A stretch of 63,568 nt of DNA, counting the filler, from Octopus bimaculoides (lineage: Eukaryota): NCBI RefSeq assembly GCF_001194135.2. It is 7 parts of 7 records of this genome, joined end to end, with 100 filler letters (N's around TTAATTAATTAA, not from the genome) between each part and the next. Parts side by side here need not be neighbours in the genome. Positions count along the whole stretch, not along the records: positions 1 to 18,426 come from NC_068998.1; positions 18,527 to 22,178 come from NW_026389056.1; positions 22,279 to 32,142 come from NC_068994.1; positions 32,243 to 44,335 come from NC_068988.1; positions 44,436 to 57,391 come from NC_069006.1; positions 57,492 to 61,773 come from NW_026344454.1; positions 61,874 to 63,568 come from NC_068985.1. The stretch is one strand, 5' to 3'. Both the position numbers and the translations under genes were made by a program. Each line of letters begins with the position of its first letter. The first letter of the stretch is position 1. Shown in pieces: positions 13,365-62,386 of this stretch. A model generated the notes under the pieces. That model saw only the letters and a list, made by a program, of their open reading frames with translations. It did not search any database and had not been told where the DNA came from.

Positions 13365-13675
13365 ATATGTTAAATAAAATGAGACAACTAAGCCAAGGCT
13401 GTGTGGAATTTATAGGACATTTATAAAGAGAAAAGTAGTCTTACGGCTGTTTCTGGGATATTAGGGATATCCTTTCATCAGAGACCATGTGTGATGGTTA
13501 AATAGAGGGAAATATTAGAGTTCAATATCAGGAGTTATTTTGGAAAAGGAAGCAAATAATGAGTATATAGGGAAATAGGAGAATGAATGTAGAAATAAAA
13601 ATAAATAAAAGTGTATAAAAATGTTATAGTTGCAGTTCCATTATCCAGGACATTGTCTCACTTTATTTAACATAT
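13365..13675 (-). mobile_element. ~310-bp element with 23-bp terminal inverted repeats and an internal hammerhead fold (PLE pseudo-LTR-like)
   Basis: atatgttaaataaaatgagacaa (13365-13387) versus ttgtctcactttatttaacatat (13653-13675), one mismatch. Hammerhead fold at 13437-13486. Confidence 0.65.
13437..13486 (-). ncRNA. Type I hammerhead ribozyme-like motif (dimer type, lightly decayed)
   Basis: Minus strand: GGUCU-CUGAUGA-AA-GGAUAU(CCCUA)AUAUCC-CA-GAAAC-AGCC-GUA/AGACU. Stem I has 5 bp, stem II has 6 bp, and stem III ACAGCCGU is one change from the palindrome ACAGCUGU. Confidence 0.7.
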
Positions 13676-13685
13676 ATATATAAAG

Positions 13686-13980
13686 AAGTGGCTGTGTGGT
13701 AAGAAGCTTGCTTCCCAACCACATGGTTCTGGTTTCAGTCCCAGTGTGTGGCACCTTGGCCAAGTGCCTTCTACTATAGCCTCAGGCCAACCAAATCCTT
13801 GTGTCAGTTTGTCCCTCTCCCCCATTGCTTGACAACCGATGTGGGTGTGTTTGTGTCTCCGTAACTTAGCAGTTCAGTCAGCAAAAGAGGCTGATAGAAT
13901 AAGTATCAGGCTTACAAAGAATAAGTCCTGGGATTGATTTGTTTGACTACAGTCAAACAACTGAAACAAATAAAAGAACA
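13686..13980 (+). mobile_element. SINE family A, near full length with an internal deletion
   Basis: Both head and tail match 31417-31803. Confidence 0.85.
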
Positions 13981-15036
13981 TGCATACATATATACACAAA
14001 CATACATACATACATACATACATACATATATACATACAAACATACATACATATATACATACATATACAAATACAAGAAGATAATTATGGACAACTGCTTT
14101 GAAACCTCTAGCTTCTATATCTGGATTACAAGTTTACATTTATGCCAATAATAACTGGAGCACCTGGTTTTGTAAATAAATGCCTGTCAGTCTCAATAAA
14201 CTTGGATTTTTACAAACAGAAATCAACCAACCAACTCACACAATACAAATACAATCTGTAATCAGAACAGTAAAAACTATGCAAGACTTATCCGAGGTTT
14301 AAAATGTGACATTGTTTTTGTTATGTACATTCCAATGATGGAACTTTGAATCTTTGTTAGAAACCAGCTCCTTCTTTGGAGGAAGAATTTATATGATTAA
14401 AAGCAGAAGAGAAACATACATATACATATATACACACAAACATATGTATGTACATACATACATACATACACATATATAAATATACATGCATACACACACA
14501 CATACTTAATCAGTATCTCATTAAGCAAGAGCAGATCTAATGATCTGCTCATGTTTAATCCTTGTCTTCTTAATTACACCTGATTAAGGAGAGATTGCCT
14601 TACATTAGATATGTAACATCCCACAAACTGTCATTCACCCTCCTTCAGGTATCCATCAGTCCCTTTCCATTGCCTTCTCAACAACTCATTACTCATGCCT
14701 TCTGCTGCCATCTAACATTACCGTCTCTATTGCTAACCTCTGTTCCTTCTCCTTCAGATCACTAACTACAGTCTTATGACTTACTACTAATCACTTTCAT
14801 AACTTATATTACCCTCGCTGTTCCTTGTAGGCAGGCCCTCTCTCTCTCACACCAAATACCTCTCTGTCTCTGTCTGTCTCTCTCTCTCTAACTCTTCCCC
14901 ACCATTCTCTCTTTCCTTGTCCTAGAATCTCCTGGAGCCAGGTAATAGGGCTAATTCTGTCCCAATACCATACTCTAATCTCTAGGTTCCACTCCCTCTC
15001 TCAGTTAAGAGGGCCTTGTCTTGCGAGTTCACGAAT

Positions 15037-15360
15037 GCTGGTGCTATGTAAAAGACACCTGTGCTGGTGCCACATAAAAAGCACTTGTGTTGGTGCCATG
15101 TAAAAGAGCACATGTGCTGGTGCCACATATAGAGCACCTGCACTGGTGCCATGTAAAAGTGAACCCCTGTTGGTGCCATGAAAAAAGTATCCAGTACATT
15201 CGGTAAAGTGGTTGGCATTAGGAAAGGCATCCAGCTGTAGAAATCATGCCAAAACAGACAACGGGAGCCTCATGCAACTCTCCAGTTTGCTAGCTCCCTT
15301 AAAACTGTCCAACCCATGCCAGCGTGGAAAACACATTAAATAGTGATGATGATGATGACG
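15037..15360 (+). mobile_element. SINE family C with an internal array of six ~26-nt units
   Basis: Units of gctggtgcca(c/t)(a/g)taaaa.gcac.tgt at 15037-15195, then the family C core and a (GAT)n tail. Confidence 0.8.
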
Positions 15361-16080
15361 ATGATGATGACAACTATCTGTCAGATATTCTCTTTACTTC
15401 ATACCATTACTGTCTCATTACACTCTACCAATACTGTCTCTTCCATTATTCCTTCAAACTCTCTCTCTCTCCCTTTTCCTCCCTTCTCTTTTAACTGTCA
15501 CCTCAATCACCCAGTTTTCTTTTCACATTCTAATTTCTCTCCTCCTCTCACCCTCTTCTTCTGCAATTGTTCTCTCTCCTATCCAGAGTAGCTAAAAGAG
15601 AAAATAATCACCCAGAATGAAAGTAGACAACATAGAACAGTGAGGGCCTCTTTTATTTTGCAGGGTGCAAGTCAACAGCACAAGTACAAGTTCCACAATG
15701 AAATGCACGAAATAAACACAGAAAAATGGCTGGTGTAAGAGTGGAGAAAATGCAAGGTCAAGAGGAGTCTTAGCCTTGTCATGGTGAGAACATGACAACC
15801 CTTATAGTGCTGGTGCATGATAAATTGCAGCCAGTATGTAATATGAAGTGGTTGGTGATCAGAAGAACATTCAGCAATAGAAAGCATGTGACACTTAACA
15901 ATGCTCCACCAAGACATGATTCTCCAGCCTGTCTTGGTGGATAATATGTCTAAATAAGACCTAATCTGGATCATAATAACCTATTCAACCATGATAGCAT
16001 AGACAGCAGGTACAAAAACAATGATTATGACAATATATATATATATTATATATATACTTTATTTAAAAGCAACAGAAATA

Positions 16081-59655: not shown

Positions 59656-60386
59656 CTTCTCACGCACAGCACATATATATACTTATTTACACATCCTCAT
59701 ACATACATAAAAAAAAATATATATATCTATACATATCCCTACACCTACATTTATATATATAGACGGACACCCACCTGCATATATACTTACACATATACAT
59801 ACATACATATACTTATACACATATATATACATACACACTTATATACACGTACATATNNNNNNNNNNNNNNNNNNNNNNNNNNNNNNNNNNNNNNNNNNNN
59901 NNNNNNNNNNNNNNNNNNNNNNNNNNNNNNNNNNNNNNNNNNNNNNNNNNNNNNNNNNNNNNNNNNNNNNNNNNNNNNNNNNNNNNNNNNNNNNNNNNNN
60001 NNNNNNNNNNNNNNNNNNNNNNNNNNNNNNNNNNNNNNNNNNNNNNNNNNNNNNNNNNNNNNNNNNNNNNNNNNNNNNNNNNNNNNNNNNNNNNNNNNNN
60101 NNNNNNNNNNNNNNNNNNNNNNNNNNNNNNNNNNNNNNNNNNNNNNNNNNNNNNNNNNNNNNNNNNNNNNNNNNNNNNNNNNNNNNNNNNNNNNNNNNNN
60201 NNNNNNNNNNNNNNNNNNNNNNNNNNNNNNNNNNNNNNNNNNNNNNNNNNNNNNNNNNNNNNNNNNNNNNNNNNNNNNNNNNNNNNNNNNNNNNNNNNNN
60301 NNNNNNNNNNNNNNNNNNNNNNNNNNNNNNNNNNNNNNNNNTAACATATATATAATCAAAATAAGCCACAAGGATATCCAGAGGTA

Positions 60387-60474
60387 ATGCAGTACGATCG
60401 TTTCATGCAACTTCATTTAATTGAACAATGCAATCATTACATCAATTTAAATGCAGAGCAATCCTCAGCTGCAC
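60387..60474 (-). ncRNA. Type I hammerhead ribozyme candidate with an intact catalytic core
   Basis: GUGCAG-CUGAGGA-[57-nt extended stem II]-GAAAC-GAUC-GUA/CUGCAU. Stem I has 6 bp; stem III ACGAUCGU is a perfect 8-nt palindrome. Predicted cleavage between 60393 and 60392. Confidence 0.78.
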
Positions 60475-60696
60475 AAAGACATAGAATTTAATTAAATTAG
60501 AACAGATGGACACATTAGTATAATTATACCTAAAATCTCCAAGAAGTTAAGGAGATAGACAAAGAACAGCATAGAAGCTTCTATGCTGGAGTGAACGCAG
60601 CATGTTCTTTATCTATCTCCTTAACTTCTTGGAGATTTTAGGTATAATTATGCTAATGTGTCCATCTGTTCTAATTTAATTAAATTGTATGTCTCT

Positions 60697-60785
60697 ATGC
60701 AGGTGAGGATTGCTCTGCATTTTAAATTGATGTAATGGTTGCATTGTTCAATTAAATGGAGTTGCTTGAAACGATCATACTGCAT
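60697..60785 (+). ncRNA. Mutated hammerhead copy in the right arm
   Basis: Same fold, but the core reads GUGAGGA (C3G) and the triplet is AUA instead of GUA. Confidence 0.65.
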
Positions 60786-62386
60786 TACCTCTGGATATCC
60801 TTGTTGCTTATTTTGATTTTTAATCACCTTATTTTGCAATTGTATGGATAATACTGTACTAAATTCTGGTACCTCAACTTAAGTACCATATTCATCTGAA
60901 TCTGAATTTTTGCTAAACATATATATATGCATATGCATACAGACTATATATATATATATATATATATATATATACACACATACACACATACACATGCATG
61001 TACATCACATACACATCGACATATATACACATCCACACATAAGTATACATATATATACACGTACATAGACATATACACATACATATACTCACAACATACA
61101 CATATACGTACGCATACGTTTATAGACTTGTGCGACCATGTACTTACATAAACACAAGTACACATACTTACATACATGGACACACACTTACATAAACACA
61201 TACACATGTACATAGTGTACATACATAAAGGAACAAATACAGGTATACACGCATATACATATATAGAAAGCTAATTAGTGAAAGGGAACGCTAAAATCTG
61301 AAAATGCTGTTATGGAAATATACTTCATAGGGTGGGAGAAGAAGAGAAGGTATAGATAAATAAAGAGGGAAGGAGAAAACAAAGTTAAAAGAGAGAGAGG
61401 GGGAGAGAGGGAAACGGGCAAAGATGGGAAGAAAAGATGAAGGGAGGAATAAAGGTTGTGGGAAATAAGAATAAAGAACAAAGAAAAGATAATTTGCAGA
61501 AGTTATTAGGTAAGGGGTAGACGCTATTTAAAAAAGTGAAAGAGTGCTTTTTCCAGGGTGCAACTCTTATACTTAGTATATAATCAGAGTAAACATAGTA
61601 GAAATTGCGATTAACATAAGTTTATATTATTTGTTCTGAAATATTCATTCACATGTAGGAACGAATTATATAAACTTGTGCTTATTGTAATTTCTCATAT
61701 ATACACATATGGATGTGTGTGTGTGTGTCTATACATATATGTAATATATATATGTGTGCACATATATATATATNNNNNNNNNNNNNNNNNNNNNNNNNNN
61801 NNNNNNNNNNNNNNNNNTTAATTAATTAANNNNNNNNNNNNNNNNNNNNNNNNNNNNNNNNNNNNNNNNNNNNGTGTGTGTGCGTGCGTGTGTGTGACCG
61901 GCTTCCACAAGGTTTCCATCTACCAAATTCACTCACAACAGATTGGTCGCCACGGAGCAGCACATCTGTAGTCAACCCCAAATTCCGTGGTGGCAAATCC
62001 AGAATGAAAAGAAAACAAGAAAAGTCCTTATGCTTTATGAAGCAATTATATACAATCTTGCGAACAGAGAAAGACCTTAGCTCTAACAGAACAATTTACT
62101 GCATCATCTCTCAGTAAAACTGAGGACCTTAGATTCTGTCTTGATCTGCTGAAACCCAGCTCTTAAATTGTAACTTATTCTCTTTAGGAAGTGGACTATG
62201 TAGTTCTAAAGGATAATCCTGGAGAGAATATCGATGTAAATATCTATATGACTGGTGCTGTCAGTAGCAAAATAAATAGAATTATCATATTTCATCTGTG
62301 AAACATTCCTGGTCTTTCTTAATTGTTTCTAGTTGATAACTCAACTGGGAACATTTAAATTCAGTTATAATATATACGTTATACAA

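What the first reader, a model, noticed from the sequence alone, without database searches (positions are those of the whole stretch)
13365..60818. A window-wide set of unrelated hammerhead-bearing mini-elements with a shared inverted-duplication architecture
Seen in sequence: hammerhead folds with different flanks and different stems II/III at 13437-13486, 16081-16137, 21979-22031, 25586-25621, 54648-54859 (two), 56319-56380 and 60387-60785 (two). Stem III is palindromic or nearly so in most (ACGAUCGU, ACAGCcGU, ACUCaGAGU, ACCGGU, ACGU). Four lie in elements whose 5' side is an inverted copy of their own 3' end (23, ~75, ~100 and ~215 bp). Established: Penelope-like elements (PLEs) carry minimal type I hammerheads in their pseudo-LTRs that act as dimers through a palindromic stem III, they often show inverted terminal segments, and non-coding retrozymes exist in animals. 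Inference: this genome holds several non-autonomous ribozyme-bearing PLE or retrozyme families mobilised in trans, and the variable inversions record fold-back or template switching at integration. Two PLE endonuclease relics in the window supply plausible partner clades. I do not know whether these families have been described.
Basis: partly seen in the sequence, partly recalled or inferred. Interest (0 to 1): 0.85.

Follow-up and report, generated by a model that had tools for sequence, protein, structure and literature searches.

The report
Penelope-element ribozyme stumps in octopus DNA
Most of the listed hammerhead-ribozyme motifs are real, and they are likely the leftover tail ends of several Penelope-type jumping genes in what is likely an octopus genome, with the mirror-image copy likely made as each one inserted; this is a known pattern seen here in families I did not find described.

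Summary
Five of nine listed motifs are strong (5 hits against 0.24 in shuffles, 0 of 200). One is rescued by reads, two support each other, one (25586) is unconfirmed. All four inversions exist. The window looks like seven joined scaffolds, so this is no cluster. The genome is likely an octopus. One ribozyme lies about 135 nt behind an endonuclease relic close to the published Hydra-1_Obim, where that element carries its own. Four have Hydra-clade ribozyme traits. For the 60354-60914 element, reads show roughly 3,300-4,200 copies, an intact core in most, two 3' ends (a tail), inversion points that differ between copies, and no strong tandem joint. It also has a likely 12-bp target duplication. 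Best reading: truncated insertion stumps of several Penelope-like families, with the inverted copy likely made at insertion. That architecture is published (PMC8557442, PMC3846280, PMC4209133), and this scan noted it before in a shark. Non-autonomy is not shown, though the 5' limits of that family cluster. Retrozymes are not supported. Ordinary kind, new families.

The parts
13365..13675 (-). Element E1: ribozyme-bearing stump with a 23-bp inverted copy of its 3' end (13365-13387 / 13653-13675), TA-rich flanks
   Evidence: 22 of 23 identical; 3.1% of random spots score as high
13436..13487 (-). Type I hammerhead, exact core, 6-pair stem I, near-palindromic stem III, base of stem II unpaired
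   Evidence: score 23; exact-core hit
16058..16137 (-). Element E2: about 80 bp between (TA)n runs; hammerhead 16084-16137 with U4C and a stem I extended to about 15 bp. Its stem III is identical to that of Penelope-3_HM; stems I and III nearly equal those of Hydra-2_Amil
   Evidence: score 21; compared by eye with File S2 of PMC8557442
21864..22176 (+). Element E3: inverted copy (21864-21962) of its 3' end (22072-22176); hammerhead 21979-22031 with A6C; right end cut by a spacer
   Evidence: 86 of 98 columns; score 15; 0.6% background
25586..25621 (+). E4: doubtful minimal hammerhead (A6U, broken 15.2-16.2 pair)
   Evidence: score 4, background level; not confirmed
54612..54897 (+). Element E5: old head-to-head pair of minimal hammerheads (54648-54687 on -, 54819-54859 on +) between (TA)n runs; each copy keeps what the other lost
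   Evidence: 48 of 74 columns identical; scores 7 and undetected
56323..56377 (-). E6: hammerhead with exact core in the 3' untranslated part of a Hydra-clade PLE copy, about 135 nt after the likely end of the ORF
   Evidence: score 16; ORF motifs end near 56518; Hydra-1_Obim has about 126 nt there (counted)
56518..56843 (-). Frameshifted GIY-YIG endonuclease relic, close to Hydra-1_Obim
   Evidence: best hit XP_014771448.1, Octopus bimaculoides, 62% identical, E 2.7e-23; shared motifs read
56844..57314 (-). Asn/Ser-rich low-complexity coding stretch upstream of the endonuclease; no RT seen before the spacer at 57392
   Evidence: aligns with the upstream part of P0001; N-rich inserts are described in PMC3846280
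60354..60914 (+). Element E7: zero-spacer head-to-head palindrome centred at 60578/60579. Arms 60354-60568 and 60603-60818; hammerheads 60387-60474(-) intact and 60697-60785(+) decayed, with a long stem II of about 20 bp
   Evidence: 204 of 215; centre; family reads
60818..60914 (+). About 95-bp tail present on the direct arm only
   Evidence: read depth about 900-1000 over 60826-60885; loose ends at 60817-60820 and behind 60903
60343..60354 (+). Left copy of a likely 12-bp target-site duplication (right copy 60916-60927); mostly TA, so chance is not excluded
   Evidence: exact 12-bp direct repeat
8782..9160 (+). Second, broken GIY-YIG-like relic with a CxxC linker (Neptune/Nematis-like by recalled motifs); a weak hammerhead-like motif lies at 9490-9530
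   Evidence: Atlas features 0.91-0.94 to clusters with PF26215 (18%) or PF01541 (21%); no Pfam or sequence hit

Best explanation
These are likely the severely 5'-truncated insertion stumps of several unrelated Penelope-like retrotransposon families, most likely of the Hydra clade for E1, E2, E6 and E7, whose ribozyme lies near the 3' end and so survives when little else is copied. Inferred mechanism: the element's endonuclease nicks a (TA)n run, and reverse transcriptase starts at one of two 3' sites (with or without the tail). The copy stops early, then folds back on a short palindrome or switches template, which makes the head-to-head inverted arm, anew at each insertion. The ribozymes are predicted to cut as dimers through the palindromic stem III in the parent RNA; the single, decayed copies here are probably inactive. 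Shown: the motifs, the inversions, the TA flanks, the attachment of E6 to a Hydra endonuclease, and for E7 the copy number, intact core, tail and variable inversion points. Inferred: parents for all but E6, the fold-back step and catalysis.
For: Motif excess over shuffles. E6 sits behind an endonuclease relic whose relatives carry the Hydra CxCX5C, CxxC and CxH motifs, at the spacing seen in Hydra-1_Obim. File S2 of PMC8557442 lists Hydra ribozymes with an extra base after A9, often U.U at the foot of stem II, and a 3-4 bp palindromic stem III; E2, E6 and E7 show these traits and E1 the long stem III. The same file lists a Hydra element with a 5'-truncated inverted copy (Penelope-13_HM) and (TA)n targets for nearly all. 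E7 reads: depth 2,977 at 60754-60765 from 1,934 million letters. C3 is present in 987 of 1,056 reads and G16.2 in 2,394 of 2,748, where this arm is mutated. There are two 3' ends. Depth left of the centre is 9-16, against about 390 at 60610-60621. Opposite-strand joints lie at other places (60585/60766, 60590/60734, 60597/60784, 60635/60676, 60678/60840; one contig each). An RNA locus carries the left half of the central 12-bp palindrome without the mirror arm, so the fold-back site likely pre-exists. In 8 of 11 arm differences the left arm equals the read majority, as expected for two copies of one template that then decayed. The architecture is published (PMC8557442; PMC3846280; PMC4209133).
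Against: No parent ORF was found for E1-E5 or E7; no genome is held and the collection scans were empty. For E7 the 5' limits of several copies cluster at 60572-60597, as a short family with a fixed start would give. The 5'-ward fall in depth is partly subfamily divergence, not truncation: 598 reads are clipped at 60721 yet continue into a homologous ribozyme. Only one of seven elements was tested with reads. The low depth left of the centre may include edge loss and poor sequencing of hairpins. The read-supported joints at 60721/60721 and 60721/60740 lie in the stem II hairpin and may be artefacts. Folding energies are unremarkable (z -1.9 to +0.4 for 11 of 11). No hammerhead is among the 150 of 276 Rfam rows shown. 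Clade calls from ribozyme shape were made by eye.
Confidence: 0.65

Rival explanations
1. Some families, E7 above all, are dedicated non-autonomous elements: short SINE-like units of about 240-335 bp with a fixed start, copied in trans by Hydra-clade proteins, with the inversion still made at insertion.
For: E7 has thousands of copies and several subfamilies that keep the core, with no ORF seen in 335 bp. Depth forms a plateau of about 390-550 over 60610-60681 and then drops within 35 nt. About eight joints or loose ends put a 5' limit at 60572-60603. Non-autonomous PLE derivatives are known (PMC8557442; preprint 10.64898/2026.07.22.740005).
Against: The reference laid ended there, so longer copies could appear only as loose ends, and 647 of those were not shown. 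The 124 nt from the limit to the core equals a Hydra 3' untranslated length (about 126 nt in Hydra-1_Obim). A fixed start could also come from copying only the pLTR of an autonomous master (inference from PMC11167929).
Confidence: 0.25
2. They are non-LTR retrozymes: tandem 150-450 bp units that give circular RNAs.
For: Type I hammerheads in short non-coding repeats; dispersed monomers of retrozyme families occur.
Against: No tandem unit lies in the window. For E7 the go-back joints seen rest on one contig or 2 reads each; no circular joint is shown in RNA, and no place has many molecules beginning or ending (8 joints not shown). The head-to-head inversion and tail are PLE traits.
Confidence: 0.04
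3. The inverted arms are terminal repeats of MITE-like DNA transposons, or the motifs are chance in AT-rich DNA.
For: Six other palindromes in which no hammerhead was found lie in the window; 25586 and the extra candidates score at background.
Against: Motif excess in 0 of 200 shuffles, core kept across thousands of reads, copy-specific inversion points, a one-sided tail, and E6 attached to a PLE endonuclease.
Confidence: 0.06

Closest known systems
Hydra-clade Penelope-like elements, e.g. Hydra-1_Obim and Penelope-13_HM (Craig et al. 2021, PMC8557442)
   Same: C-terminal GIY-YIG endonuclease type (E6), hammerhead near the 3' end, 3-4 bp palindromic stem III, (TA)n targets, inverted 5'-truncated copy.
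   Different: None of six window motifs searched in that supplement matched a Hydra family (one chance match in a Chlamys element). E7 has a stem II of about 20 bp against 3-7 bp in the listed Hydra ribozymes, and a tail of about 95 bp against 30-40 bp. No RT was seen.
Minimal PLE hammerheads (Cervera and de la Pena 2014, PMC4209133)
   Same: Extra base between 9 and 10.1, palindromic stem III, many unrelated families per genome, mostly single motifs ascribed to truncated PLEs, and pairs 100-700 bp apart on opposite strands.
   Different: Most here lack the usual G10.1-C11.1 pair; only E4 and E5 are of the minimal ACGU type.
Adineta vaga Penelope insertions (Arkhipova et al. 2013, PMC3846280)
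   Same: Head-to-head inverted pLTR with a palindrome at the junction, one-sided tail, target duplication around the whole unit, N-rich coding inserts.
   Different: The figured cases there mostly keep an ORF; E7 is only the inverted pair.
Animal non-LTR retrozymes (PMC7229834; preprint 10.64898/2026.07.22.740005)
   Same: Short non-coding repeats with type I hammerheads, linked to PLE pLTRs.
   Different: Retrozymes are tandem and give circular RNA; neither was seen here.

Membership tests
Type I (minimal) hammerhead ribozyme | CUGANGA / GAAA / UH core with stems I-III | tested here: met
   Exact core in E1, E6 and the E7 left arm; one core change in E2 and E3; not met alone by E4 or E5
Type I (minimal) hammerhead ribozyme | Core conserved across copies | tested here: met
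   E7 only: C3 in 987 of 1,056 reads, G16.2 in 2,394 of 2,748; N7 varies; no other core position among the 40 of 86 variant rows shown
Type I (minimal) hammerhead ribozyme | Covariation in stems | tested here: inconclusive
   60766 is T in 56% and A in 44%, and a subfamily has A at the partner 60711, but the two are unphased
Type I (minimal) hammerhead ribozyme | Self-cleavage | not testable with these tools
   No pile-up of RNA ends in two runs; PMC11167929 also saw none for a working PLE ribozyme
Penelope-like element (EN+) | RT plus GIY-YIG endonuclease ORF | tested here: inconclusive
   Endonuclease relic attached to E6 only; no RT seen in the window; parents of the others not found
Penelope-like element (EN+) | Inverted 5'-truncated copy and optional tail | tested here: met
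   Inversions in E1, E3, E5 and E7; tail in E7
Penelope-like element (EN+) | Target-site duplication | tested here: inconclusive
   12 bp around E7, TA-rich; not separable from TA runs for E1, E2 and E5; E3 and E6 are cut by gaps
Hydra clade | Endonuclease without CCHH, with CxxC and CxH, and a CxCX5C linker | tested here: inconclusive
   The relic matches Hydra-1_Obim motif by motif through its C-terminal half; the linker is not seen in the window but is present in relatives P0003, P0004, P0015 and P0121
Hydra clade | (TA)n insertion preference | tested here: met
   TA runs at the ends of E1, E2, E5 and E7; E7 reads run into TA/CA; such runs are common in this DNA
Non-autonomous element | Fixed 5' end and no coding parent | tested here: inconclusive
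   5' limits cluster for E7, but sequence upstream was not visible; not met for E6
Non-LTR retrozyme | Tandem head-to-tail units | tested here: not met
   None in the window; no strong joint for E7 among 15 of 23 shown
Non-LTR retrozyme | Circular RNA | tested here: inconclusive
   No circular joint shown in two ordinary RNA-seq runs, 6% of each read

The most novel reading that the evidence does not exclude
The octopus genome carries dispersed, SINE-like non-autonomous parasites of Hydra-clade Penelope elements: units of about 240-335 bp with a fixed start, an intact hammerhead with a very long stem II, thousands of copies, no tandem arrays, and a mirror arm made by fold-back at a built-in micro-palindrome. 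At the density seen here (3 exact-core motifs in 56 kb; 11-156 per Mb) the genome would hold tens to hundreds of thousands of hammerheads, among the richest known.
Probability: 0.25. Interest if true: 0.55.

Novelty: new member of a known kind. Interest (0 to 1): 0.3.

Why it matters
The architecture is known, so the main gain is annotation: undescribed ribozyme-bearing PLE families in a cephalopod, where repeat surveys count Penelope elements but do not mention ribozymes (PMC13282606). The E7 family has thousands of copies with differing inversion points. It is a ready data set for the open question of how PLEs make head-to-head inversions, which PMC8557442 names as unresolved.

Tried and rejected
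No whole genome is held. Rfam scan at E up to 10: no hammerhead in the 150 of 276 rows shown, which are dominated by microsatellite-driven miRNA hits. Pfam found nothing on either endonuclease relic, nor did the solved-structure search on the 8782 relic. Word-index protein searches were empty. An E7 pattern found 0 matches in metagenome contigs; related-locus scans found nothing with P0001 in viral contigs or P0015 in metagenomes. No RNA holder was listed by the run index; this is no evidence on expression. The single read lay covered only 60550-60905, so E1-E6 have no copy data. Folding energy did not separate the motifs from shuffles. Extra candidates at 54429-54469 (score 11; shuffles average 1.0 hit at 10 or more) and 9490-9530 are not claimed. 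Rejected: a physical cluster (spacers), tandem retrozymes, and one shared family. Two sequence look-ups, one place look-up and one of two word look-ups in earlier findings were empty. Not seen: Repbase, Dfam, the O. vulgaris repeat library and the bioRxiv supplements; these families may be deposited there under other names.
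Full report
Setting. The window is AT-rich animal DNA full of (TA)n and (CA)n runs. Six identical spacers (44 N, the same 12 letters, 44 N) likely join seven scaffolds, so the motifs are not neighbours in a genome. 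No genome is held. The best hit of an endonuclease relic at 56610-56870 is an Octopus bimaculoides protein (62%, E 2.7e-23), and another hit is from Argonauta. The source is therefore likely an octopus.

Are the ribozymes there? A scored type I descriptor finds 5 motifs at 14 or more against 0.24 +/- 0.46 in 200 local dinucleotide shuffles, with 0 of 200 reaching 5. Because that score was built after seeing the motifs, I repeated the test with a plain descriptor. It gave 3 against 0.09 (exact core), 4 against 0.31 (one mismatch, full stem I), and 7 against 2.8 at the loosest setting (5 of 200 shuffles). Stem III mirror pairs not demanded by the descriptor are 6 of 7 against 20 of 59. Of the nine listed motifs five are strong, 60697-60785 is rescued by reads, the pair at 54648/54819 complement each other, and 25586-25621 stays unconfirmed. 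Against: folding z-scores are weak for all 11 tested, and Rfam shows no hammerhead in the 150 of 276 rows printed. U4C and A6C, found in E2 and E3, lower activity but occur in natural ribozymes (PMC3088659, passages).

Inversions. All four exist: 22 of 23, 86 of 98, 48 of 74 and 204 of 215. All are head-to-head, with 3' ends facing out. Random spots match the 23-bp case in 3.1% and the 100-bp case in 0.6% of 1500 trials. Six other palindromes without a detected hammerhead lie in the window, so inversion alone is not diagnostic. The elements are unrelated in sequence.

One has its parent attached. E6 (56323-56377) lies about 135 nt behind a frameshifted endonuclease whose motifs follow Hydra-1_Obim, a published O. 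bimaculoides element, to the C-terminus. That element has about 126 nt between stop and ribozyme (my count). Relatives of the relic carry the Hydra linker and CxxC/CxH motifs. An Asn/Ser-rich stretch lies upstream, and no RT is seen before the spacer. File S2 of PMC8557442 (supplement part 2) shows Hydra ribozymes with an extra base after A9, often U.U at the foot of stem II, and a 3-4 bp palindromic stem III. E2, E6 and E7 show these traits, E1 the long stem III, and the stem III of E2 equals that of Penelope-3_HM. This comparison was by eye. E4 and E5 have the minimal ACGU type. The second relic (8782-9160) is PLE-like only by Atlas features and recalled motifs.

The E7 family in reads (one arm plus the centre, 60550-60905, 80% likeness, one raw DNA run, one contig set, two RNA runs). 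Depth peaks at 2,977 from 1,934 million letters. With a genome of 2.1-2.7 Gb (contig sets; upper figure recalled) that is roughly 3,300-4,200 copies. The two core positions mutated in this arm are intact in 987 of 1,056 and 2,394 of 2,748 reads; 46 of 86 variant rows were not shown. Copies end either at about 60817-60820, running into TA or CA, or near 60914, so the direct arm carries a tail of about 95 bp that the inverted arm lacks. A 12-bp TA-rich direct repeat flanks the whole unit. Depth left of the centre is 9-16, and five contigs invert at five other points, so the mirror is likely copy-specific; edge loss and hairpin dropout may add to the low depth, and two read-supported joints inside stem II may be artefacts. 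The centre is a zero-spacer palindrome, and one RNA locus (20 reads) has its left half without the mirror arm, which fits fold-back at a pre-existing site. No strong head-to-tail joint appears among 15 of 23 shown. RNA reads (575 and 388, nearly all from other copies) come from both strands, with no pile-up of ends. PMC11167929 reports the same absence for a working PLE ribozyme (section read).

What stays open. The 5'-ward fall in depth mixes truncation with subfamily divergence (598 reads clipped at 60721 continue into a homologous ribozyme). Several copies have a 5' limit at 60572-60603, which favours a short unit with a fixed start. But the reference ended there, 647 loose ends were hidden, and 124 nt is also a normal Hydra 3' untranslated length. 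Non-autonomy is therefore possible, not shown. Searches for parents were empty.

Known or new? PMC4209133 (parts 1-2 of 4 read) describes many minimal-hammerhead families per genome, mostly single motifs ascribed to truncated PLEs, with pairs 100-700 bp apart on opposite strands. PMC8557442 (passages, section 11 and parts of the supplement) describes the inverted 5'-truncated copy, the tail and (TA)n targets. PMC3846280 (passages) describes junction palindromes, self-priming and N-rich inserts. Retrozymes are tandem (PMC7229834, passages; preprint 10.64898/2026.07.22.740005, parts 1-3 of 5). Octopus surveys list Penelope elements as abundant (PMC13282606 and PMC8967140, passages); the first has no mention of ribozymes. 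Searches pairing octopus with hammerhead terms returned only the 2021 paper as relevant (related searches). I could not see Repbase, Dfam or the O. vulgaris library.

Verdict. A real and well-spotted feature, but a known architecture in undescribed families: new member of a known kind, interest 0.3. The bolder reading, dispersed non-autonomous Hydra parasites at 11-156 exact-core motifs per Mb (one window of small scaffolds), has probability 0.25.

Noticed in passing
window 18427-18526, 22179-22278, 32143-32242, 44336-44435, 57392-57491, 61774-61873: Six identical 44N-12 nt-44N spacers, likely artificial joins between scaffolds.
   Followed up: partly
window 54612-54632 vs 31544-31570: The outer 21 nt of E5's inverted arm match at 19 of 21 a segment of an abundant SINE-like repeat, and both abut (TA)n. 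Either a SINE scrap at the junction or a shared origin of that segment with a PLE 3' end; unexplained.
   Followed up: partly
window 56844-57314 (-) and P0001: A long Asn/Ser-rich stretch precedes the YIG strand in this relic and in an O. bimaculoides protein that also shows no linker or RT. Hydra-1_Obim has a short N/T-rich insert at that spot, so this may be an octopus Hydra sub-family with a much expanded insert.
   Followed up: partly
window 56391-56422: A gapped inverted copy of stem II and GAAAC of the E6 ribozyme lies just upstream of it (22 of 24 columns) and could compete with its fold.
   Followed up: no
window 54429-54469 (+) and 9490-9530 (+): Two further weak hammerhead-like motifs: one with U at position 3 just after a (TA)n run, one about 330 nt behind the second endonuclease relic.
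   Followed up: partly
window 3064-3227, 20572-20872, 36364-36825, 46419-46685, 53190-53290, 61600-61695: Other palindromic elements in which no hammerhead was found, MITE-like.
   Followed up: no
window 4227-4562 (-), 10653-10949 (+): Mariner-like transposase relics (PF17906, E 1.2e-16 for the first; the second by resemblance only).
   Followed up: no
E7 reads, loose ends behind 60817: 175 DNA reads continue into a common sequence that itself holds a palindrome; another repeat may often sit next to this family's 3' end.
   Followed up: no
window 37018-37387, 58199-58582, 62385-63208: Local direct duplications of about 170-220 bp units.
   Followed up: no
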